From an uncultured Alphaproteobacteria bacterium (lineage in GTDB: Bacteria; Pseudomonadota; Alphaproteobacteria; RF32; CAG-239), in assembly GCA_944393215.1 (NCBI GenBank), contig CALXZL010000003.1, positions 87,238 to 151,237 of the forward strand: a stretch of 64,000 nucleotides of DNA, given 5' to 3'. The notes under the pieces are model-generated. The model was not told the origin of the DNA, ran no database searches, and worked only from the letters and a program-made list of their open reading frames with translations. The translations under genes and the position numbers were made by a program. This document shows positions 53,422 through 64,000 of the stretch, in pieces (positions within the stretch are counted from its first letter, which is position 1; the number at the start of each line of letters is the position of its first letter).

Positions 53422-53688
53422 TCAAGATAACCAATTTTTTATCAGCTTTTCTTTTATGTTTTGACTGCCTACTGCATTAATAGAGCTGTATAACACATCT
53501 TTTTCAAACAAAAAACCGATAAACTCATCACTTAAATGTAACTTAGCTCTGACTTCTTTATGCTCTGCTTCTTCCGCATTCCAAGCATAAAGTGTCTTAC
53601 CATCAGTTAAAATACGAACCAGTCTATGATGTTCACATAGCCTCTTAAATTGTTCCTTGTTAAGTATTGGTAGAATATTATTATTCAT
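53422..53688 (-). CDS. Small hypothetical protein downstream of the WYL regulator
   Basis: 88 aa. It overlaps the WYL gene end by 8 nt, so it is likely co-transcribed. Confidence 0.45.
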   Translation of the reverse strand: MNNNILPILNKEQFKRLCEHHRLVRILTDGKTLYAWNAEEAEHKEVRAKLHLSDEFIGFLFEKDVLYSSINAVGSQNIKEKLIKNWLS

Positions 53689-54631
53689 ACCAATTCTCCG
53701 GTTTAATTACTTTTACATGACTTCCCCATGTGTAGAGATGCCAATCCATTTCTAATCTGCCACCGGCTCTGAATTTAACGGTTAATGTTCCGTCCGGATT
53801 TTTTATCATGGCTTGTGTGGGATGAAAAATATAGTGAGAGGCTTCTTCTGATACTTCTTTATCAAACAACCATTCAACTTCGAAAGGCTCTTCGTGATAA
53901 GCACCAAATGATTCTTCAGCGTATTTCTGCAAGTTAAAATCAGGCGAGTTTTCAATTACACTGTTTAATATTTCTACTTCTCGAATATTGCTCAAAATAA
54001 AGTTATGAACTTCATTTCCAAAATATCCATCAGCATGATGGGCAACCAAGTAGTGATTGCGCTCACCATAAAGAAAGCCATAAGGGTTAAGGGTATTGGT
54101 ACTAATTTTTACGCTATTCTTATTATAATATTTAATTTTAATCTGCCGATATTCCAAAATGGCTTGGCGAACCGTAGCGATAATCTTTTCATCTATCACA
54201 AGTCTTGGTCCGGGGCGACAAATAAAGCCTTCTGCTTCAAGCAAGGCTTCGGTATCGGGTTCAATTTTGCGGATTATATCTGGTTTAATGGAGGCTTTTA
54301 TTTTTGCTATAACTTTATCAAGAACAAGGCTCCTTTCAACCATTTGCTTATTTCCAAACAACTCTTTAGCTGTTTCTAGAATCGATAATTCTTCGGCAGA
54401 AAAGTTTATTAAATCCTTTAATGTTCCTTGCGGAATATACCAGCGTTTTTGATTGTTTTCGCAAATAATTTCTTCGGCTTGCGGAAATCGAGTGATAATC
54501 ATGTCTCGCATACGTTCCGCCGTGCGGCGCGAAACTTGATATTTTTCAGCAATATCATTTAAGCTGACACCTTCACGGGTGGATTGCATCCAGACGGCTA
54601 AATCAAGCAAATCATATGTCTTTTCGTATGC
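53681..54631 (-). CDS. HTH plus WYL-domain transcriptional regulator (BrxR/CapW-like architecture)
   Basis: The N-terminal HTH is LNDIAEKYQVSRRTAERMRDMI. The central and C-terminal region (..YGFLYGERNHYLVAHHADGYFGNEVHNFILSNIREVEIL..) has a WYL-like pattern. The start is set at MAYEKTYDLL. Confidence 0.6.
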   Translation of the reverse strand, partial: AYEKTYDLLDLAVWMQSTREGVSLNDIAEKYQVSRRTAERMRDMIITRFPQAEEIICENNQKRWYIPQGTLKDLINFSAEELSILETAKELFGNKQMVERSLVLDKVIAKIKASIKPDIIRKIEPDTEALLEAEGFICRPGPRLVIDEKIIATVRQAILEYRQIKIKYYNKNSVKISTNTLNPYGFLYGERNHYLVAHHADGYFGNEVHNFILSNIREVEILNSVIENSPDFNLQKYAEESFGAYHEEPFEVEWLFDKEVSEEASHYIFHPTQAMIKNPDGTLTVKFRAGGRLEMDWHLYTWGSHVKVIKPENWYE

Positions 54632-54742
54632 CATGATTACTTCTCCTACTATTAAGGTAAAGTAATTGTATGACAATTTCTGACATATGAAAATTATTTC
54701 TTTTTCAAATCAAATGAATCTAAAGTTTGGAAGATAACAATA

Positions 54743-55851: not shown

Positions 55852-56349
55852 ATGAGAAAAAAAACTAAAATAATAATATTGCTTTCTGGAATGGCTGCCT
55901 CTGGAAAATCAACTATTGCAAAAGAGTTTTTATTTGCAACAAAAGAATTAAATATAAAAATTGGTTATATACCTGGAGATGTAGTTGCCCATCTTGTATT
56001 TGATTGCAAATATAGTAAAAATGAATTAGATATTAAATATATAAATATGCAAAATATCATAAACATTTTATCGTATTATTGTGACGTAATATTTATTGAA
56101 GACCTTTTTAAAAGACAACAAGATTGGAACGTTATCACAAAAAAATGTTCTTCAATTGCAAAATTGTATACTTATTCTCTTCTTTGTGATTATCATACAC
56201 TAATAAAAAGAAATAATAACAGAGACGTAGAGCAAAAACTTTCCTATAAAAAAATGATTAATTATTACAATATATATTCTAAATACAATAAGTTAGGCGA
56301 TATAATAATAGATTCAAAAAAATTTATGAGATTAATGATGAAATTCTAA
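55852..56349 (+). CDS. Small P-loop NTPase/kinase-like protein (AAA_33-like)
   Basis: Walker A is LSGMAASGKST. The protein is 165 aa and very AT-rich. Confidence 0.55.
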   Translation: MRKKTKIIILLSGMAASGKSTIAKEFLFATKELNIKIGYIPGDVVAHLVFDCKYSKNELDIKYINMQNIINILSYYCDVIFIEDLFKRQQDWNVITKKCSSIAKLYTYSLLCDYHTLIKRNNNRDVEQKLSYKKMINYYNIYSKYNKLGDIIIDSKKFMRLMMKF

Positions 56350-56474
56350 AAGATATTTTTGGAAGCCACAAAAATAATAATGAAAGATGCCTTGGTTGGA
56401 CATACTTTAAGGTTAAACTGTTAAATGATTTTTACAGCACCGGAATCCAAGATATTTATACGGTTGTTGAAGAT

Positions 56475-56951
56475 ATGATTAAAATCAAAAATCTTGATGA
56501 AAATATTAAGAATGGTGATTTTAAAGCCGTAAACGAAATCAGAGATATTTTTAAGAATAACAAAGAAAACAAAAACAGCCATGATATTTATTCTTTTGCT
56601 ACTAAATTCTGCCATTTTTCAAATCCGGACAAGTTTTCTATTTATGATCGTTATGTCGCTTATTTATTAAAGGACTATATTATAAAATGGAAAGATAAAT
56701 TTACTTCCGCCTTTATTAAATATAATGAAACATCTAAAGAAAATAAGATTAAGATTGATAAACCGACAGCAAGCTCTCTTTTAACCGCTATGAGAGATTA
56801 TACATTCTTTATGAATGTGATTGAATTATTTATGAGTAATTGTAAAATTTCCAAACGCAATTCAAGAGCTAAAGTAGACAATTACCTATGGTTAGCAGGC
56901 ATGATGAAATACAGAAAAGGAAGTAACGTTGCTCAAGATTATAAAAATTAA
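56475..56951 (+). CDS. Hypothetical protein
   Basis: 158-aa ORF. An in-frame stop-free extension runs upstream, so the true start is uncertain. Confidence 0.4.
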   Translation: MIKIKNLDENIKNGDFKAVNEIRDIFKNNKENKNSHDIYSFATKFCHFSNPDKFSIYDRYVAYLLKDYIIKWKDKFTSAFIKYNETSKENKIKIDKPTASSLLTAMRDYTFFMNVIELFMSNCKISKRNSRAKVDNYLWLAGMMKYRKGSNVAQDYKN

Positions 56952-57474
56952 ATCATAGAGAGTTGTATAGAGGTTTAAATTAAGACACTCTATATAAAAC
57001 CCTAATATTTCCAATGCTTTTAGAGGGATAGAGGTTTAATAAAGGATTATATATACCGAGGTATCAATGACAAATATTATTAATTCTAAATAAAAAAAAT
57101 ATATTAAGATTATAGATAGAATATTAAAATATATATTATATATACTTTGGGTTGTTTTTTATTTAGACATTTTATTTGTTATATTATATATTGTAACCAG
57201 TTTTAACTCTCTATCTTTCTAAAACATACAGTTTTCTTGATTTTTTTATAGAGAGACTGAAATTTTAACTCTCTAACCCTGTTAAAAACACTCTATATTA
57301 GAATATCCTTTGTTTTCTATGCATATAAAAGAACTTTGCTTATTCCTACATCATTTATCAAAAACATTCAAAATCTCGTTATATGCAAAGAAAATGCAAG
57401 CTATTTTAGACTATTAATAAAATATTTTATTTTTAATGGTATTGTTTTAGCATAAAGGGGCAAAGGAGCATCCT

Positions 57475-58389
57475 ATGGAAAAGCAAATAATTGAAATTTC
57501 GAATGATGGATTTTCTTTATTTTTACATAGAGGTTTTATAAGTATTGAAAATAAAGATATTTCATTAAAAACAGAAATTCCATTGGATAATATTTTATCA
57601 TTAGTGATTAGTGCTAATGATTTGATGCTTTCTAAAAATGTAATAAATGCCATAACAGAACAGGGTGCAAATATTATTTGTTGTGGTAAAAATTATGTTC
57701 CTTCTTCAATTATAATTCCTTGCGAGGGGCATTGGCTAGTCGCATCAAGAGTTCAAAATCAAATAGAATGCTCCAAACCTTTACAAAAAAATTTATGGAA
57801 GAGTATTATTCAAAATAAAATTTATAATCAATCCAAAATTTTAGAGCTCTTTTTTCCTAATCATAGTAATATTGCGCGACTGAAACAATTAGCTAAGGAT
57901 ACACTTAGCAATGATGCGCGAAATAATGAAGGGGTGGCGGCTTCAATTTATTTCAAATCATTATTTGGTAAGAACTTTGTGCGAGATAGATTGAGCGGCG
58001 ACGTTAATATTTTATTGAATTATGCTTACATAGTTCTTAGAGCTATGGTTATAAGAGCAATTTATGGTAATGGATTGTTGCCTTTTTTAGGATTAAAGCA
58101 TTGTGCTAAAACAAATACTTTTCCCCTAGCAGATGATTTGATGGAGCCTTTTAGACCGTGGGCTGACAAATTGGTATTCGAGGAAATAAATAGGCTAGTT
58201 AATATTCAAGATATTGAATTGACGCCGGAAATAAAACGAAGATTAACAGGACTGATTTCTATTCCTGTCAAGACAGGTAAAGGTTGTGTTTCGTTAAATG
58301 ATGCCGTGTTTGATTTTGTGGGAAGTTTGGTCGTCAGTTTTGAAGATAAAAAAGTTAAATTAAAATATCCAGAGTTTGAAGATAGTTGA
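57475..58389 (+). CDS. cas1: CRISPR-associated endonuclease Cas1 (type II)
   Basis: 304 aa, alignable along its length with type II-C Cas1 (..NYAYIVLRAMVIRAIYGNGLLPFLGLKHCAKTNTFPLADDLMEPFRP..). The stop codon lies inside the degenerate terminal CRISPR repeat. Confidence 0.9.
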   Translation: MEKQIIEISNDGFSLFLHRGFISIENKDISLKTEIPLDNILSLVISANDLMLSKNVINAITEQGANIICCGKNYVPSSIIIPCEGHWLVASRVQNQIECSKPLQKNLWKSIIQNKIYNQSKILELFFPNHSNIARLKQLAKDTLSNDARNNEGVAASIYFKSLFGKNFVRDRLSGDVNILLNYAYIVLRAMVIRAIYGNGLLPFLGLKHCAKTNTFPLADDLMEPFRPWADKLVFEEINRLVNIQDIELTPEIKRRLTGLISIPVKTGKGCVSLNDAVFDFVGSLVVSFEDKKVKLKYPEFEDS

Positions 58390-59601
58390 CTGTCTAATTA
58401 ATCTCTGATACGTTTGAAGCTAATTCTATTAAACTTTCTTTAGGTTATAGTTGACCGTCTAATTAATCTCTGATATGCTCTTTCCAGCGCGGCACGCTTT
58501 TCATCCGGTGGTTATAGTTGACCGTCTAATTAATCTCTGATATGCTTAAGTATTCCGGTAAGTTTCTTCTTTGAGGGTTATAGTTGACCGTCTAATTAAT
58601 CTCTGATATGCTGAAAAACCGAGATAATCACCTAGACTCCCGGTTATAGTTGACCGTCTAATTAATCTCTGATATGCTGTAATTGAACATGAAACGTTAT
58701 CGTCGTTAGTTATAGTTGACCGTCTAATTAATCTCTGATATGCTATGAAATTATTTTTTCGCCTATTTGAATTTGTTATAGTTGACCGTCTAATTAATCT
58801 CTGATATGCTCTATTTCAACACATTGATAGCTCGTTTCAGTTATAGTTGACCGTCTAATTAATCTCTGATATGCTCTATTTCAACACATTGATAGCTCGT
58901 TTCATGTTATAGTTGACCGTCTAATTAATCTCTGATATGCTTATGTTATAAATATATCATAAACAAACAAGGTTATAGTTGACCGTCTAATTAATCTCTG
59001 ATATGCTTGCTTTTCTCATCAATTTGACTTTGTAACTGTTATAGTTGACCGTCTAATTAATCTCTGATATGCTAACACCCACGGCCTGCCAGACGATGAC
59101 CACGTTATAGTTGACCGTCTAATTAATCTCTGATATGCTAAAAACCGAAAAAATAGGTTAAATTGGTTAGTTATAGTTGACCGTCTAATTAATCTCTGAT
59201 ATGCTGGCGTTCCGTGGCATCAATATCAATTAAAAGTTATAGTTGACCGTCTAATTAATCTCTGATATGCTATAACAGTATTCGGGCCAGTGCGCAATTT
59301 TGTTATAGTTGACCGTCTAATTAATCTCTGATATGCTCTCGGAGATGATGGGGCTTACAGCACCTGAGTTATAGTTGACCGTCTAATTAATCTCTGATAT
59401 GCTACCGGAACTCGATGTATAAACGTTTTCTTGGTTATAGTTGACCGTCTAATTAATCTCTGATATGCTCACGCAGACCTGGTTTAGCGATTTTAATCTG
59501 TTATAGTTGACCGTCTAATTAATCTCTGATATGCTCAATTATATCCTGAAACGGTTAATAAAGCTGTTATAGTTGACCGTCTAATTAATCTCTGATATGC
59601 T
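58379..59601 (+). CRISPR. CRISPR array: 18 identical 36-bp repeats (GTTATAGTTGACCGTCTAATTAATCTCTGATATGCT) plus one degenerate terminal repeat at 58379-58414; 18 spacers of 29-31 bp
   Basis: Repeat starts are at 58444, 58511, 58577, 58643, 58709, 58775, 58840, 58906, 58972, 59038, 59104, 59170, 59236, 59302, 59368, 59434, 59500 and 59566. The degenerate copy gaagatagttgactgtctaattaatctctgatacgtt has 6 mismatches. Spacers 6 and 7 (58811-58839 and 58876-58905) are identical except for 1 nt. Confidence 0.95.
58471..59601 (+). promoter_or_regulatory. Repeat-embedded extended -10-like promoter elements (TGATATGCT at repeat positions 28-36), predicted to drive plus-strand crRNA transcription
   Basis: TGnTATgcT resembles an extended -10 (TGnTATAAT). 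This parallels the repeat-internal promoters of Neisseria/Campylobacter type II-C arrays. The orientation agrees with tracrRNA anti-repeat complementarity. Confidence 0.5.
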
Positions 59602-59611
59602 ATCTGATAGC

Positions 59612-59655
59612 ACAAGGCCTTGAAATAACTAGATTTCAAGGTCTTGTTTTAATAA
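59612..59655 (+). terminator. Intrinsic terminator downstream of the array (plus strand)
   Basis: A 13-bp stem (aaggccttgaaat / atttcaaggtctt, one G-U) with loop aactag, followed by gttttaataaaaaaa. Confidence 0.5.
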
Positions 59656-59676
59656 AAAAATGTTGTTTGTTTGCCC

Positions 59677-60039
59677 CTAAAAGAGCAATAACTGTCCATT
59701 TTTTTCGCGAATCTCTTCTTCATTATCTTCAAAATTCTTGCCTAAATAGTTCTCGGTCATTAGATATTGTTTATCCGTGATATAAATAAATGATACCGAA
59801 GAATTATCCGGTATGAATTTGGATAACTTTTTAGTTAAGGTTTGTCCTACCGACAAACTCTTAACCGGTTTGATGTAAACGGAAAACTGCTTCATCATAA
59901 AACCTTCATCAAGTAGGAGATTGCGAAAGCGGGTGGCTTTGCGCATCTCGGTTCGAGTTCTGACCGGTATGTCAAACATACAGATTATCCACATCATTGA
60001 CCAGCCGGTTAAGGTTTCACGCCGCTTTTGTCGAGCCAT
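59677..60039 (-). CDS. cas2: CRISPR-associated endoribonuclease Cas2 (II-A-like MFDMP-type)
   Basis: MMWIICMFDIPVRTRTEMRKATRFRNLLLDEGFMMKQFSVYIKPV resembles Streptococcus-type Cas2 ([42 protein letters not shown]). The likely true start is the MM at 59997. The longer ORF overlaps the cas9 end. Confidence 0.85.
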   Translation of the reverse strand: MARQKRRETLTGWSMMWIICMFDIPVRTRTEMRKATRFRNLLLDEGFMMKQFSVYIKPVKSLSVGQTLTKKLSKFIPDNSSVSFIYITDKQYLMTENYLGKNFEDNEEEIREKNGQLLLF

Positions 60040-63000
60040 TGCTCAATACCTTGTGTTTCTTTTTTATTTTCCCAAATGGGGTTAATTCTATTTTTCTTAC
60101 TCTATATTTGCATAACCATTGTAAGCTCTTATCTTCTAATAAAACTGGTAGCATATACTTTGGTTTGCTATTAGCATTTTCTCCATTTCTTGCATCATTT
60201 GATAGTTTTATTCCTAATTGGTTTCTTCCAAATCTAAACTTAACAATTTCAGCAATGCAACGTTGTTTATCTGTATATTCTTTCCATTCTTCTGGGGTAT
60301 TCAATTCAAGCAAATCACCTTGCTGCACAGACCATATGATTTTTCCTCCATCTTGTTGCCATTGTGGAACAAAATCTTTTTGGTTTATGTCAAAAAGCCT
60401 AATTACTTCGCCATTGATTTTTTCATTTTGCTCATAAACTTCTAAACAATAATTATTCCGCCCTTCATACGCAACGCCATGCTTGGGGATATAAACCAAT
60501 GAAGAATTGTTTTCATAACTCCTAAATTTATCGCCTTTCCATAACTTTTTCTCTTGAATGAGATAAAAAGCCCTAGTTAAAATACGACTTTCGGTGATGG
60601 AAATTTCTTTTTTGCCTTCAGATGCAGCTTTTTCGTTTTCAGCAATCAGAATTTGCTCGGCTGTATTTGCATAAAGTTCAAAGGCTTTGACTAATTGAGC
60701 TTGCTTTGCTTTGTCTTCGGCAATGTGCTTATTCCACTCATCTTTAATGGAATCGGGAATGAGTAATTTGTTTAAGTCTTTCATTGATTTAACAACTTGT
60801 AATATCTTGCGTGAATAAACCGTGATTAAGGATTTGCTGTCATCCGGGTTTATGCATAAAACCGTTCTACCGGTTTCTTTATGGAGTTTTCCTGCTTTGC
60901 TGTGTTCGGGCTTGTGCGAAACATTAACCTTTTTTAAAACATCAATAACTTGACGGCGAAACTCTCCGACTGACTCAATACTTGTTAACGGAAGAGGTAC
61001 ATGCTGATGCGGTAAATCGATTTCATTAGCCATATGCTGGATCAGAGAACGATTCATACAAGCAACAGTTATGGCGTCCATGGCGTGATGACGATGGTCA
61101 ATTCTGGGCTTTGATACCCATTCTTTGTTCTTAGTTTTATCAAAAAATCTCCATTTGCCATCAATATTAGGTTGTTTTACTCCTTCAATAACTTCTCCAG
61201 TATCTTGCTCAACCCAATAAGGAGAACAATTTATATATCTTGGAATATCCAATCCCATGAGATCATATTCCAAACCTTGTAAGTTCCAACAGCGGCGCAT
61301 TTGAGCAGTTTGAGCTCCTTTAACAGGAAGAATCCGATTATGAATCACTTCTTCACTATCTGGGCTATCAACAATTGCTCTTAAATATCTTGCTGCCATT
61401 TTGGAGACATAACGCGTATCTGTTAAATAGCGTGTAGTTTCATCTGCATCCCCTTCTTCTTCGAATTTTTCACGAGCGTCGGCCTCAAAACGCCATGCTT
61501 TGGCAGGTGTTCTCTCTCGGGCATTTTGTAATATGGTCCTTATCATTTCGGGAGATTTTGCTTTTAGAAAATACTCATAAGCAAAGTCATTCCCTTTGGC
61601 TAAATTGTCCGGACGATTGACCAAACAGAGATTGTAATAAGTATCGGTTCCGCCTTTGGCTTGCGGAATGATATGTTCTATTTCAAAACCGACAAAATTT
61701 CTTGTGATATCATCCGTCGGATTATAAGCGTCTTTCCAACCTTGTTCTTTGGCTAGTTTATATTTCAAAATGTTCTTGCCGTTAATAAACAGCTTGTGGT
61801 CTTTTAAGTATTGTTTGGCCTCTTCATTAAGTTTTTCATTATTTTTTTGCTTTTGCTCTTCTTGCTTTTTCTTTTTGGTTGACATGCCAACATCTCGACC
61901 AAGCTCAATATTGATGTCATAAGGTTTGCCGTAAATGCGGATTATATCATTAATCACCAAGCGGAGTTGATTTAAAATCATATGAACTGCCGGATTGGCT
62001 ATTTTGCCCCATTTGATTTCATCAGGATTAAGATTTTTGTTGTTTTTGACCATTAATGGTGGAAGCGGTTGTGTATCAGCCTGCAAAATCTCGCCATAAT
62101 AAGGAAGTTCATGACATTTGCCTTGGTTTTGGCGGGCGACTTCTTCCGATGCCATAAATCTGTTATCATTTTTAGCTAAATCATCGGTTATTTCACGGTG
62201 GGTTATTACTTGTTCTTTTAATTTTTCCAAAATAATTTTTGAGGCACTTTCACCTAACATTCCGCGACCTTTGGGAAGTTTGGTAAGTAGCTTGCCAATT
62301 TCTTTGTCATCATCAATTTTTAGAATCGGTTTTAAGTGCGTTATTAGCTCATCCTCACTATATAAGCGACCATTTTTATCATTGGGGTTGACCGGATTAG
62401 CTAAAAAGTCAACAAATTTTGCCAATTCTTCATCTGAGAGCTTTTGTATATATTCTATCTCTGAGAATTCGGGACGTGAGTATAAATAAGCCTTGATGTT
62501 TTTATCATCAAGTAAAGAAATTTTTTGTTGAGCTGAAAGACCTAATAATTTTTTGATAGCTGATTTTCCGGCATTTTTGCCTTGCAATAAAAGCTCATTG
62601 ATAATTTTATCTCTTTCTTCTAAAGTTAGCTTGCGTTTATTGGTGTCGCTTAATACACGGATATTATTTACTTCTTCATAAATACGTCTTAATTCTGATA
62701 ATGGATGTGCTTTCAGCAGTCTGTCTTCATCTTTGAAATAAATACATTTTCCAGTAGCATAAGGAGCTGGTGGATGCTCATAAAACAAAATATCATAAAT
62801 TTCTTTTTTCAGACCTTCCTTTTGCATTTGCGTAAAGTATTGAGCCTGTGTATCCCAAATTCGGTTAAACTCATCTTTTACCAGATAGCGGGGAATTGCA
62901 TAATCTACAATGTGTTGTTTTAAGGCGTGTTCTTTTTGGCGGATAATTCTTTTTTCAGGATTTATTTTTTCGCCTTTTTCATCCTTTGCATATCCTTCAC

Positions 63001-63529
63001 AAATTCTTTTATAAAAAAACTCACCGATCGTTTTAGAATTTGTTTGCTTTAAATGCTCTGCCATCATGTCATAGGCTGATTTTTTTGCCTTTGATTTTTC
63101 TCCTTCTTCCAAAATTTCTTCTTGTAACTCTTCAGAGGCAGATACAAATCCAGCTCCGCGATGTTTAGCCATATGCAGAATAGCTCGTCCGATATAATTG
63201 GGATTGGCAAGCGTTCCGTTTACGGCATCAAAGCGAATTTTATAAGGAGATTTTGCTCTTAATTTATCCGTTCCTTCCGGCGTATTGTTTACCCATAGCT
63301 GGTTTTCAAAAAGTTTTTGGGCTAACAATTCCAGCCTTTGGCGGGTGCGAATCTGATTTTTTCGCATTGTTCGTTTGGTTCGTCTGTCTTCGGCTCCTTC
63401 CGATACATTAAAGATACGAACTCCGGCATCAATAATCTTTTGAGGATTGTTACACTCATCTAACTCAATAATTGCGCTACCAATGGAGCCAACTCCTAAA
63501 TCCAAACCCAAACGATACTTCATAAACAT
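60017..63529 (-). CDS. cas9: CRISPR-associated endonuclease Cas9 (1170 aa)
   Basis: RuvC-I is YRLGLDLGVGSIGSA. The Arg-rich bridge helix follows. HNH is FEIEHIIPQAKGGTDTYYNLCLVNRPDNLAKGN. RuvC-III is HHAMDAITVAC. cas2 is adjacent. Confidence 0.95.
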   Translation of the reverse strand: MFMKYRLGLDLGVGSIGSAIIELDECNNPQKIIDAGVRIFNVSEGAEDRRTKRTMRKNQIRTRQRLELLAQKLFENQLWVNNTPEGTDKLRAKSPYKIRFDAVNGTLANPNYIGRAILHMAKHRGAGFVSASEELQEEILEEGEKSKAKKSAYDMMAEHLKQTNSKTIGEFFYKRICEGYAKDEKGEKINPEKRIIRQKEHALKQHIVDYAIPRYLVKDEFNRIWDTQAQYFTQMQKEGLKKEIYDILFYEHPPAPYATGKCIYFKDEDRLLKAHPLSELRRIYEEVNNIRVLSDTNKRKLTLEERDKIINELLLQGKNAGKSAIKKLLGLSAQQKISLLDDKNIKAYLYSRPEFSEIEYIQKLSDEELAKFVDFLANPVNPNDKNGRLYSEDELITHLKPILKIDDDKEIGKLLTKLPKGRGMLGESASKIILEKLKEQVITHREITDDLAKNDNRFMASEEVARQNQGKCHELPYYGEILQADTQPLPPLMVKNNKNLNPDEIKWGKIANPAVHMILNQLRLVINDIIRIYGKPYDINIELGRDVGMSTKKKKQEEQKQKNNEKLNEEAKQYLKDHKLFINGKNILKYKLAKEQGWKDAYNPTDDITRNFVGFEIEHIIPQAKGGTDTYYNLCLVNRPDNLAKGNDFAYEYFLKAKSPEMIRTILQNARERTPAKAWRFEADAREKFEEEGDADETTRYLTDTRYVSKMAARYLRAIVDSPDSEEVIHNRILPVKGAQTAQMRRCWNLQGLEYDLMGLDIPRYINCSPYWVEQDTGEVIEGVKQPNIDGKWRFFDKTKNKEWVSKPRIDHRHHAMDAITVACMNRSLIQHMANEIDLPHQHVPLPLTSIESVGEFRRQVIDVLKKVNVSHKPEHSKAGKLHKETGRTVLCINPDDSKSLITVYSRKILQVVKSMKDLNKLLIPDSIKDEWNKHIAEDKAKQAQLVKAFELYANTAEQILIAENEKAASEGKKEISITESRILTRAFYLIQEKKLWKGDKFRSYENNSSLVYIPKHGVAYEGRNNYCLEVYEQNEKINGEVIRLFDINQKDFVPQWQQDGGKIIWSVQQGDLLELNTPEEWKEYTDKQRCIAEIVKFRFGRNQLGIKLSNDARNGENANSKPKYMLPVLLEDKSLQWLCKYRVRKIELTPFGKIKKKHKVLSNGSTKAA

Positions 63530-63617
63530 CTCCTTGTCTTATTGTTGTGCAACTCTGCATAAAACAACTTATAATATTATCCTTGACTTTTCAATCAAAA
63601 TATTCTTATATTACAAG

Positions 63618-63726
63618 TGATATATGTTTTGATTTTTTCAGAGATTAATTAGACGGTCAATACATATATAATAAGGTTATATACCGTAAGATGAGGGGGT
63701 GAGTAATTGCCCCCATTATTTTTCAG
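63618..63726 (+). ncRNA. tracrRNA candidate, divergent from cas9
   Basis: The anti-repeat cagagattaattagacggtcaa (63639-63660) is a perfect complement of repeat positions 8-29. An AAGG-containing nexus-like segment follows. A terminator hairpin GGGGGTGAGTAATTGCCCCC plus TTATTTTT lies at 63695-63724. Candidate promoter elements are TTGACT (63583-63588) and TTATAT (63606-63611). Confidence 0.65.
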
Positions 63727-64000
63727 ATTTTATCTAAGATTATCGGATATTTGCGAAGCAGTTTTTGAAAAAGTTTTACGGCTTCTTTTTTATCTAATAT
63801 TTTCGGTAGTTTGAGAGTTACGCTATCGGTATTAACCTGTTTACCGGATGTATCAATAATGCAATATTTATTATTTACCGCGACAAAAGCCTGACCATTG
63901 CAAAACTCACCGACCTTATCAAAAATTATCGGAATGATGATTTTTCCGGTGTTGTCCATATATCCCCAGTGATTATGGCAAGTAATCGGTTTAAGCTCTT
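63723..64000 (-). CDS. WG-repeat (WG_beta_rep-like) protein, partial; continues beyond the window end
   Basis: GKIIIPIIFDKVGEFCNGQAFVAVNNKYCIIDTSGKQV matches the WG-containing repeat pattern. The reading frame is open to the window edge. Confidence 0.45.
   Translation of the reverse strand, partial: ELKPITCHNHWGYMDNTGKIIIPIIFDKVGEFCNGQAFVAVNNKYCIIDTSGKQVNTDSVTLKLPKILDKKEAVKLFQKLLRKYPIILDKI

What the first reader, a model, noticed from the sequence alone, without database searches (positions are those of the whole stretch)
57475..63726. Type II CRISPR-Cas9 locus with rearranged architecture: cas1 on the opposite strand and on the far side of the array from cas9-cas2
The layout seen is cas1(+) > array < cas2(-) < cas9(-), with a divergent tracrRNA upstream of cas9. 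Canonical II-C and II-A loci keep cas9-cas1-cas2 collinear with the array after cas2. Here cas9 and cas2 are directly adjacent with no cas1 between them. cas1 lies beyond the old, degenerate end of the array and is inverted, so its stop codon is inside the degenerate repeat. Gene content in the window is II-C-like, with no csn2 or cas4. Yet Cas2 carries the II-A-type MFDIP N-terminus, so the locus may be a II-A/II-C intermediate or one that lost csn2. Separating cas1 from cas2 raises the question of whether adaptation still works and how cas1 is expressed. Its upstream 520 bp is an AT-rich repeat-bearing region.
Basis: partly seen in the sequence, partly recalled or inferred. Interest (0 to 1): 0.75.

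Follow-up and report, generated by a model that had tools for sequence, protein, structure and literature searches.

The report
CRISPR-Cas9 locus with displaced cas1
This is an intact type II-C-like CRISPR-Cas9 immune locus whose odd layout (cas9 and cas2 together, cas1 alone and inverted beyond the spacer array) is the standard, conserved layout of a whole lineage of gut Alphaproteobacteria, not a recent rearrangement or a II-A/II-C hybrid.

Summary
The layout is cas1 (57475-58389, +), a 19-repeat array (58379-59601), cas2 (59677-60039, -), cas9 (60017-63523, -) and a divergent tracrRNA (~63619-63724, +). The cas1 stop codon lies inside a degenerate first repeat.

In 60 related loci from gut alphaproteobacterial MAGs (Cas9 40-94% identical), cas9 and cas2 are always adjacent and overlapping. 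Of the 44 loci with a detectable cas1, 38 have it inverted downstream of cas9-cas2 and 6 have it upstream of tracrRNA-cas9. Distant outgroups (25-31%) keep cas9-cas1-cas2.

No csn2 or cas4 occurs in any locus or beyond the window end. The Cas2 "MFDIP" motif also occurs in canonical three-gene outgroups.

The locus behaves like type II-C. Every repeat carries a sigma70-like promoter, crRNAs run towards cas2, the cas2-proximal repeat is always perfect, and the cas1-proximal repeat is decayed.

cas1 sits on the crRNA strand and reads straight into the array. It is under strong purifying selection (dN/dS 0.05-0.09). It has a different history from cas9-cas2 in at least one pair of loci (Cas9 97%, Cas2 100%, Cas1 73%).

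Verdict: a new architectural variant of a known kind, of moderate interest.

The parts
57164..57192 (+). Candidate cas1 promoter (TAGACA-17-TATATT), in a 23.5% GC intergenic region. An AAGGAG Shine-Dalgarno lies at 57463-57468.
   Evidence: Consensus scan, 10/12 matches; sequence; GC. Not verified experimentally.
57475..58389 (+). cas1 (304 aa). It is its own transcription unit, on the same strand as the crRNAs and tracrRNA, and its stop codon lies inside the first repeat.
   Evidence: TIGR03639 239 bits, PF01867. E152/H209/D221/E224 are at least 97% conserved across 58 Cas1 sequences. dN/dS 0.05-0.09.
58379..58414 (+). First (oldest) repeat, degenerate, with 6 mismatches. Positions 1-3 are lost. 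The -35/-10 promoter part and the tracr-pairing core are kept.
58379..59601 (+). CRISPR array: 19 repeats of 36 nt and 18 spacers of 29-31 nt. It is transcribed on the + strand towards cas2. Each repeat holds TTGACC-17-TGaTATGCT.
59602..59676 (+). Conserved 75-nt junction between the array and cas2 (the putative leader). It comprises the motif ATCTGATAGCA next to the last repeat, then a 14-bp hairpin (59613-59646), then a T/A-rich tract. It is the probable integration-side leader and a terminator for array transcripts.
   Evidence: Length is 72-75 nt in 41 of 52 loci. In the hairpin, 8/14 pairs show compensatory changes, 86% of cells are paired, and 0/500 shuffles reach the score.
59677..60039 (-). 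cas2 (120 aa). It overlaps the cas9 3' end by 23 nt, implying translational coupling.
   Evidence: TIGR01573 62 bits. The overlap is conserved in most related loci. The N-terminal extension is conserved.
60017..63523 (-). cas9 (1168 aa from the probable start; the ORF extends to 63529).
   Evidence: TIGR01865 459 bits; RuvC_III and HNH domains. D10, H619, N642 and HHAxDA are invariant across 13 homologues.
63583..63612 (+). tracrRNA promoter (TTGACT-18-TATATT).
   Evidence: 10/12 matches.
63619..63724 (+). tracrRNA (~105 nt): anti-repeat 63638-63660, an AAGG...CCGU nexus-like element, and a terminator hairpin 63695-63714 followed by a T run.
   Evidence: conserved upstream of cas9 in 34 related loci; z = -4.1; 24-bp duplex, -39.1 kcal/mol.

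Best explanation
This is a functional CRISPR-Cas9 system of type II-C gene content (cas9, cas1, cas2, tracrRNA, array; no csn2 or cas4). Its architecture is the one typical of a large clade found in gut-associated Alphaproteobacteria.

Shown by sequence and comparison:
1. cas9 and cas2 form one overlapping unit on the minus strand.
2. The tracrRNA is divergent upstream of cas9.
3. The array lies downstream of cas2 but is oriented against it.
4. Every repeat contains a complete sigma70-like promoter.
5. The cas2-proximal repeat is always perfect. The distal first repeat is decayed, mainly in its 5' seven bases.
6. cas1 is a separate, selectively maintained gene on the RNA strand. Its ORF ends in, or just before, that first repeat.

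Inferred:
- crRNAs start inside each spacer from the repeat promoters, pair with tracrRNA over 24 bp and are trimmed, as in Neisseria and Campylobacter II-C systems.
- New spacers enter at the cas2-proximal repeat, next to a conserved 75-nt leader with a hairpin.
- Cas1, made from its own promoter, assembles with Cas2 in trans. Its transcript necessarily runs into the array because there is no terminator before 59613.
- The loss of the first repeat's 5' bases would break the lower stem of the guide-RNA duplex. That would prevent a useless 'extraneous' crRNA from being made out of the cas1 3' end.

In evolutionary terms, cas1 is loosely linked to the module. It occupies either end of the module in different lineages, is missing within 10 kb in three loci, and has a history discordant with cas9-cas2.
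For: - Gene identities.
- Architecture across relatives: 38 of 44 related loci with cas1 have it inverted downstream of cas9-cas2, 6 have cas1 upstream of tracrRNA-cas9, and the outgroups are canonical.
- tracrRNA position is conserved in 34 loci.
- Repeat promoters: TTGACC-17-TGnTATGCT in all 18 perfect repeats. Across 52 loci the -35 is TTGAC[C/T/A] in 50, TGn is present in 52, and the -10 is TAnnnT in 47, with a perfect TATAAT in 10. This hexamer lies outside the tracr duplex.
- Polarity: first-repeat mismatches are 0.34 per position at positions 1-7 against 0.06 at positions 8-36. The last repeat is perfect in 49/49 arrays.
- Published II-C rules (repeat promoters, array opposite to cas2, acquisition at the last repeat, mutated first repeat): PMC12080349, PMC7665894, PMC12477760.
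- The leader hairpin shows covariation.
- The repeat-like first unit begins at or before the cas1 stop codon in 15/38 loci and ends within 100 nt of it in 29/38. The stop codon is supplied by different repeat frames in different lineages.
- Cas1 catalytic residues are kept and all three genes are under purifying selection.
- Spacer turnover occurs between strains with identical Cas2.
- Discordant histories: L023 against L024 has Cas9 97%, Cas2 100% and Cas1 73%. L023 against L051 has dS of 0.055 for cas1 and 1.02 for cas9. DNA homology between L023 and L024 stops exactly at the tracrRNA 3' end.
Against: - There are no expression data. The promoters, transcript ends, crRNA processing and the cas1 read-through are all sequence inferences.
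- The direction of spacer acquisition is inferred from repeat decay and published II-C behaviour, not from observed insertions. Strain comparisons showed either complete sharing with an internal deletion or no shared spacers.
- No protospacer was found for five spacers in IMG/VR or for 817 spacers in the fetched loci. Targets and the PAM are therefore unknown.
- Mosaicism also exists inside the cas9-cas2 unit (cas2 dS 0.21 against cas9 dS 1.02 in L023/L051). The separate history of cas1 may therefore reflect general recombination rather than a special property of cas1.
- The canonical cas9-cas1-cas2 operon that Chylinski et al. 2013 used to characterise II-C is not met.
Confidence: 0.82

Rival explanations
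1. One reading: a recent, strain-specific rearrangement moved and inverted cas1, perhaps compromising adaptation.
For: The order differs from canonical II-A and II-C loci and from the outgroup loci L061-L079.
Against: The same order occurs in 38 of 44 related loci with cas1, down to about 46-55% Cas9 identity, from human, mouse, ruminant and chicken gut MAGs. cas1 dN/dS is 0.05-0.09. All four independent contigs that carry the identical Cas1 and extend past the array show the same order.
Confidence: 0.02
2. A II-A/II-C intermediate, or a II-A system that lost csn2.
For: The best solved-structure matches for Cas2 and Cas1 are II-A proteins from Streptococcus and Enterococcus (entry identities from my own knowledge): Cas2 49 bits, Cas1 110 bits. 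The tracrRNA sits upstream of cas9.
Against: No csn2 occurs in 60 loci or beyond the window end. The MFD[IL]P motif is also present in canonical three-gene outgroups. The PDB ranking is probably biased, because the solved type II Cas1/Cas2 structures I know of are II-A. The Cas9 best matches are II-C enzymes: the Nme1Cas9 entries 6JDQ and 6KC8 at E = 3.5e-33, ahead of SaCas9 5AXW at 6.6e-25 (entry identities from my own knowledge). Repeat-embedded promoters, the antisense array and first-repeat decay are II-C traits.
Confidence: 0.05
3. The cas9-cas2-array block is an invertible segment. It would flip by recombination between the tracrRNA anti-repeat and the CRISPR repeats (a 23-bp perfect inverted homology) or through the nearby small tyrosine recombinase. 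The two layouts would then be two states of one switch.
For: The two layouts differ formally by one inversion of the tracr-cas9-cas2-array block relative to cas1. The anti-repeat is a perfect 23-bp inverted copy of every repeat. A 194-aa tyrosine recombinase gene lies 2 kb beyond cas9 in 7 loci.
Against: Cas1 proteins of the two layouts are distinct lineages (about 73% identity against 82-99% within the upstream-cas1 layout, excluding the deep-branching L050 at about 55%), and their flanks are unrelated. Recombination at the anti-repeat would detach the tracrRNA tail from its promoter, and no such product is seen in about 50 loci. All contigs of the window's strain show one orientation. The recombinase is present only in close relatives.
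Confidence: 0.03
4. A decaying locus in which interference persists but adaptation is dead, with cas1 a stranded remnant.
For: cas1 is separated from cas2. Three related loci lack cas1 within 10 kb. Some strains carry shorter arrays with an internal deletion.
Against: The cas1 ORF is intact, its catalytic residues are conserved and selection is strongly purifying. Repeats are perfect, and spacer sets are wholly different in strains with identical Cas2. Arrays reach 128 repeats.
Confidence: 0.05

Closest known systems
Type II-C CRISPR-Cas9 (Neisseria meningitidis, Campylobacter jejuni)
   Same: Minimal gene set of cas9, cas1 and cas2 plus tracrRNA. 36-nt repeats, each carrying a promoter. Array oriented opposite to cas9/cas2. 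The first (oldest) repeat is mutated and the leader-side repeat next to cas2 is intact. Cas9 of about 1100-1170 aa, with best solved-structure matches to II-C enzymes (PMC12080349, PMC7665894, PMC12477760).
   Different: cas1 is not between cas9 and cas2. It is a separate unit on the other strand, beyond the distal end of the array (or, in a minority of relatives, upstream of tracrRNA). cas9 and cas2 overlap. The cas1 ORF ends inside the first repeat, so the cas1 transcript is continuous with the array. cas1 has a discordant evolutionary history.
Type II-A CRISPR-Cas9 (Streptococcus pyogenes / S. thermophilus)
   Same: Cas1 and Cas2 are recognisably similar. The tracrRNA is divergent upstream of cas9. 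The dual-RNA anatomy is the same: lower stem, bulge, upper stem, nexus-like AAGG...CCGU element and terminator.
   Different: There is no csn2. The array is antisense to the cas genes. Transcription comes from repeat-internal promoters rather than a single leader promoter. The decayed repeat is at the transcription-upstream end.
Canonical three-gene relatives of this clade (Treponema, Arenicellales and other MAG loci L061-L079)
   Same: Homologous Cas9 (25-31%), Cas1 (30-42%) and Cas2 (35-43%). They share the Cas2 N-terminal motif (wMW..MFDLP) and have no fourth gene.
   Different: They keep cas9-cas1-cas2-array collinear.

Membership tests
Type II CRISPR-Cas | Cas9 effector with a split RuvC domain and an inserted HNH nuclease domain | tested here: met
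   TIGR01865 459 bits over residues 5-1153. Pfam RuvC_III, HNH_4, HNH and Cas9_a. Catalytic D10, H619, N642 and HHAxDA are invariant in 13 homologues.
Type II CRISPR-Cas | tracrRNA with an anti-repeat complementary to the CRISPR repeat | tested here: met
   A 23/23 anti-repeat at 63638-63660, with its own promoter and terminator. 24-bp duplex at -39.1 kcal/mol. Conserved position in 34 related loci. Expression is not testable here.
Type II-C | Adaptation genes limited to cas1 and cas2, with no csn2 and no cas4 | tested here: met
   Only the cas9, cas2 and cas1 families are conserved in 60 loci. Neighbours on both sides, including five genes beyond the window end, have no Csn2 or Cas4 hits in Pfam or PADLOC.
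Type II-C | Conserved collinear cas9-cas1-cas2 operon (the Chylinski et al. 2013 characterisation) | tested here: not met
   cas9 and cas2 are adjacent and overlapping. cas1 is on the opposite strand beyond the array. Definition quoted from PMC3737331.
Type II-C | Repeat-embedded crRNA promoters and an array transcribed opposite to the cas genes (typical of many II-C systems, not strictly defining) | tested here: met
   TTGACC-17-TGaTATGCT in every repeat on the strand opposite to cas9/cas2, conserved across 52 loci. The strand is fixed by tracrRNA complementarity and the terminator. Sequence-level only, with no transcript data.
Type II-C | Cas9 falls in the II-C part of the Cas9 phylogeny | tested here: inconclusive
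   The best solved-structure hits are II-C Cas9s (Nme1Cas9 entries, E about 1e-33 to 1e-38), ahead of SaCas9 at 7e-25 (entry identities from my own knowledge). The nearest outgroup loci are three-gene systems. No reference phylogeny was built.
Type II-A | csn2 (or a variant fourth gene) downstream of cas2 | tested here: not met
   The array starts 75 nt after the cas2 stop. No conserved fourth gene was found.
Type II-B | cas4 in the operon and a type I-like Cas1 | tested here: not met
   No Cas4 hit. Cas1 matches the type II/NMENI model at 239 bits, against no more than 57 bits for any type I model.

The most novel reading that the evidence does not exclude
In this lineage Cas2 has become functionally and genetically tied to Cas9 (overlapping genes that are always adjacent). 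cas1 is a free-standing, exchangeable gene whose mRNA is physically continuous with the pre-crRNA. tracrRNA pairing at the still-pairable first repeat (-36.9 kcal/mol), followed by RNase III cleavage, would then define the cas1 mRNA 3' end. That would couple Cas1 dosage, and so spacer acquisition, to tracrRNA/Cas9 occupancy. It would be a hard-wired version of the link between crRNA abundance and adaptation recently described for Neisseria Cas9.
Probability: 0.12. Interest if true: 0.7.

Novelty: new variant of a known kind. Interest (0 to 1): 0.42.

Why it matters
cas1 and cas2 are usually treated as one inseparable adaptation module. Type II-C is described as a collinear cas9-cas1-cas2 operon.

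Here a large, widespread gut clade stably keeps cas2 fused to cas9 and places cas1 at the far end of the array or elsewhere. cas1 has its own evolutionary history and its transcript runs into the array.

This has four consequences:
- Operon order is not needed for type II adaptation.
- Automated locus callers that expect contiguous cas operons may truncate or misorient these systems.
- The clade is a natural system for asking how Cas1:Cas2:Cas9 stoichiometry, and read-through into the first repeat, are handled.
- The clade is also a set of more than 1000 uncharacterised Cas9 orthologues of about 1165 aa, with clearly predictable guide RNAs.

Tried and rejected
1. Acquisition polarity from shared spacers. 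Contigs with identical Cas1 share both ends of the array and differ only by an internal deletion (spacers 6-16). Contigs with identical Cas2 but another strain background share no spacers. Species-level relatives share none. This was uninformative, so polarity rests on repeat decay and published II-C behaviour.

2. Protospacers and PAM. I compared 817 spacers from all loci against 1.5 Mb of fetched sequence, and ran five window spacers against IMG/VR. There were no hits.

3. Rfam scan of 56000-64000 at E <= 1. There were no hits, so neither the tracrRNA nor the leader hairpin belongs to a curated family.

4. RNAalifold on the cas2-array junction returned no structure. Explicit pair counting on the same alignment supported the hairpin.

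5. Inversion through anti-repeat/repeat recombination as the source of the two layouts. Rejected, because the tracrRNA is intact upstream of cas9 in both layouts and the two cas1 lineages differ.

6. A regulatory role for the repeated motif upstream of cas1. The motif is found only in the closest relatives, so it is not part of the conserved system.

7. Subtype-specific HMMs. PADLOC and NCBIfam models name only 'type II', not the subtype.

8. Literature. Six full-text searches and six papers read gave no description of this gene order. Three key reviews and classification papers are not held in the library, so prior description cannot be excluded.


Full report
**1. What is there**

- cas1 lies at 57475-58389 on the + strand (304 aa; TIGR03639 type II Cas1, 239 bits).
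- The array runs from 58379 to 59601. It has 18 exact 36-nt repeats, GTTATAGTTGACCGTCTAATTAATCTCTGATATGCT, against 0 expected in shuffles.
- One degenerate copy lies at 58379-58414. Its TGA is the cas1 stop codon.
- cas2 lies at 59677-60039 on the - strand (120 aa).
- cas9 lies at 60017-63529 on the - strand (TIGR01865, 459 bits, with RuvC_III and HNH domains).
- The real cas9 start is probably the third codon (63523), six nt after an AAGGAG. Gene callers on related contigs also give 1168 aa.
- cas2 overlaps the end of cas9 by 23 nt.
- The conserved Cas2 N-terminal extension shows that the annotated cas2 start is real.

**2. Guide RNAs and strand**

The tracrRNA is on the + strand, divergent from cas9. 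It has the following parts:
- a promoter, TTGACT-18-TATATT, at 63583-63612;
- an anti-repeat at 63638-63660, perfectly complementary to repeat positions 8-30;
- an AAGG...CCGU nexus-like element;
- a GC hairpin at 63695-63714 followed by a T run.

The RNA folds much better than shuffles (z = -4.1). It forms a 24-bp duplex with the repeat (-39.1 kcal/mol). This fixes the crRNA sense as the + strand, the same strand as cas1 and opposite to cas9-cas2.

The promoter scan found TTGACC-17-TGaTATGCT in every one of the 18 perfect repeats. Across 52 related loci:
- the -35 is TTGAC[C/T/A] in 50;
- the TG is present in 52;
- the -10 hexamer keeps TA at positions 1-2 in all 52, and T at position 6 in 47;
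- ten loci have a perfect TATAAT.

This hexamer lies outside the tracrRNA duplex, so pairing does not explain its conservation.

Repeat-embedded promoters and an array oriented against cas2 are the published hallmarks of Neisseria and Campylobacter type II-C systems (PMC7665894; PMC12477760; PMC12080349).

**3. Is the layout a recent rearrangement?**

No. A scan of one genome per species with a Cas9 alignment returned 80 loci. I annotated them with tblastn and a repeat finder.

Sixty belong to a clade of gut "Alphaproteobacteria" MAGs from human, mouse, ruminant and chicken, with Cas9 40-94% identical to the window.
- In every locus long enough to see it, cas2 directly follows and overlaps cas9, and the array follows cas2.
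- cas1 is detectable in 44 loci.
- In 38 of these it is inverted downstream of cas9-cas2. In 37 it lies beyond the array, exactly as in the window. In L052 it lies between cas2 and the array.
- In the other 6 (L011, L023, L025, L048, L050, L051) it lies upstream of the tracrRNA, co-oriented with cas9 and convergent with the tracrRNA.
- Three loci with full 10-kb flanks (L033, L044, L056) have no cas1 nearby, even by HMM search. L056 has 128 repeats.
- Outgroups at 25-31% identity (Treponema, Arenicellales and others) are canonical cas9-cas1-cas2-array.

The tracrRNA sits upstream of cas9 in both layouts.

**4. Subtype**

- All-against-all clustering of every ORF in the 60 loci found only three conserved families: Cas9 (53 loci), Cas2 (52) and Cas1 (44). 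The next real family is present in no more than 8 loci.
- A contig 99.98% identical to the window over 16.5 kb (L081) shows what lies beyond position 64000: a WG-repeat protein, a 194-aa tyrosine recombinase, two unknown proteins and a DUF3768 protein. None hits Csn2 or Cas4 models.
- The "II-A-type" MFDIP motif is also present in the canonical three-gene outgroups.
- Cas1 and Cas2 match II-A structures best. To my knowledge those are the only solved type II adaptation proteins, so the ranking is uninformative.
- The best solved matches for Cas9 are II-C enzymes.

The system is therefore II-C by content and by array logic, but it fails the "collinear cas9-cas1-cas2 operon" description of II-C (PMC3737331). 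I did not build a reference phylogeny.

**5. Polarity and the cas1-array junction**

In 49 arrays the cas2-proximal repeat is identical to the consensus in every case. The distal first unit carries 0.34 mismatches per position at positions 1-7, against 0.06 at positions 8-36. This fits the published II-C rule that spacers enter at the last repeat and the first repeat decays (PMC12080349).

The 72-75-nt stretch between cas2 and the array is conserved in length. It has a conserved motif next to the repeat and a 14-bp hairpin. In that hairpin 8 pairs show compensatory changes, and 0/500 shuffles reach the observed score. I read this stretch as the integration-side leader plus a terminator that stops array transcripts from entering cas2. 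That reading is an inference.

At the other end:
- The repeat-like first unit begins at or before the cas1 stop codon in 15 of 38 loci, and it ends within 100 nt of the stop in 29.
- The stop codon is supplied by different repeat positions and frames in different lineages: TGA from GTTGAC, TAA from CTAATTAA, TGA from GTCTGA.
- No + strand terminator lies between cas1 and the end of the array, so cas1 transcripts must continue into the array.
- What the first unit retains is the promoter part. What it loses is the 5' GTTATAG.
- I paired those bases by hand with UAUAAU in the tracrRNA to form the lower stem next to the guide.
- Loss of these bases matches the "mutated extra repeat" strategy against extraneous crRNAs (PMC12080349).

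**6. Is cas1 functional, and does adaptation work?**

- E152, H209, D221 and E224 are at least 97% conserved in 58 Cas1 sequences. From general knowledge of Cas1, these are the metal-binding positions.
- dN/dS is 0.05-0.09 for cas1, 0.00-0.03 for cas2 and 0.07-0.16 for cas9.
- cas1 has its own Shine-Dalgarno sequence and AT-rich upstream region in all loci.
- Contigs carrying the identical Cas2 in other strains have entirely different spacers. Species-level relatives with identical repeats share none.

This is indirect but consistent evidence of active acquisition.

**7. Discordant history of cas1**

- L023 (cas1 upstream) and L024 (cas1 beyond the array) have Cas9 97% and Cas2 100% identical, but Cas1 only 73% identical.
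- Excluding the deep-branching L050 (about 55%), the upstream-type Cas1 proteins are 82-99% identical to one another, although their Cas9 partners are 73-91% identical.
- DNA homology between L023 and L024 (94%) runs from exactly the tracrRNA 3' end through the array and stops there. The flanks are unrelated.
- For L023 against L051, dS is 0.055 for cas1 and 1.02 for cas9.

The tracrRNA-cas9-cas2-array block and cas1 therefore recombine independently. As a caveat, cas2 and cas9 also differ in dS within that pair, so mosaicism is general.

**8. Rivals**

- An assembly artefact or a recent event is excluded by the breadth of conservation.
- An invertible switch is unlikely.
- A decaying locus is contradicted by the selection evidence and by spacer turnover.

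**9. Novelty and score**

Six full-text searches and six papers gave no description of a cas9-cas2 / array / inverted-cas1 architecture.

All components, and most probably the mechanism, are those of type II-C. What is new is a stable alternative architecture that uncouples cas1 from cas2 and places cas1 in the transcription-upstream position of the array. I rate it a new variant of a known kind. It is of moderate interest to CRISPR specialists and low interest beyond them.

Noticed in passing
window 58811-58839 and 58876-58905: Two adjacent spacers are the same sequence apart from one extra 3' base (29 and 30 nt). This suggests two independent captures of one protospacer rather than a duplication. 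Adjacent near-duplicates also occur in L035, L050 and L056.
   Followed up: partly
window 63632-63660, minus strand: The DNA complement of the tracrRNA anti-repeat carries the same -35 as the repeats (TTGACC), a 17-nt spacer and TGaAAAAAT, all pointing towards cas9. A cas9 promoter could therefore overlap the tracrRNA gene. A second candidate, TTGATT-16-TATTAT, lies at 63598-63571.
   Followed up: no
window 53681-54676 (-): A WYL-domain protein matches the CRISPR-associated WYL models of PADLOC (79 bits). It lies 2.8 kb from cas1, beyond trpS and two small genes. It is present in only 5 of 60 related loci, so it is probably not a dedicated regulator.
   Followed up: partly
window 56952-57474: The 523-bp intergenic region upstream of cas1 has 23.5% GC. 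It holds four copies of a 12-nt motif (TTTAACTCTCTA and its complement): two at 56956 and 56968 on one strand and two at 57202 and 57264 on the other. The motif is found only in the closest relatives (L001, L004, L009).
   Followed up: partly
window 56475-56951 (+): The 158-aa gene directly upstream of cas1 carries the HI_0787_N domain (PF27257, from precomputed hits). It is kept next to cas1 in strains of this species, as a 260-aa version in L087. Its function is unknown.
   Followed up: no
L081 16249-19920 (beyond window end); window 47-52 kb: The locus sits in a mobile or defence-island-like context. A 194-aa tyrosine recombinase and a DUF3768 protein lie beyond the tracrRNA. Two resolvases, two SHOCT-domain proteins and a DUF6626 protein lie on the cas1 side.
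   Followed up: no
L082 and L083 (contigs with identical Cas1): These arrays contain spacers 1-5, 17 and 18 of the window's array, counted from cas1. That is an internal deletion of 11 spacer-repeat units, or an assembly collapse.
   Followed up: partly
L033, L044, L056: These are cas9-cas2-array loci with no cas1 within 10 kb on either side, even by HMM search. L056, from a complete-chromosome MAG, nevertheless has 128 repeats.
   Followed up: partly
L052 6330-8883: A third layout at 49% Cas9 identity: cas9, cas2, an inverted cas1 immediately after cas2, then the array beyond cas1, with a divergent repeat.
   Followed up: no
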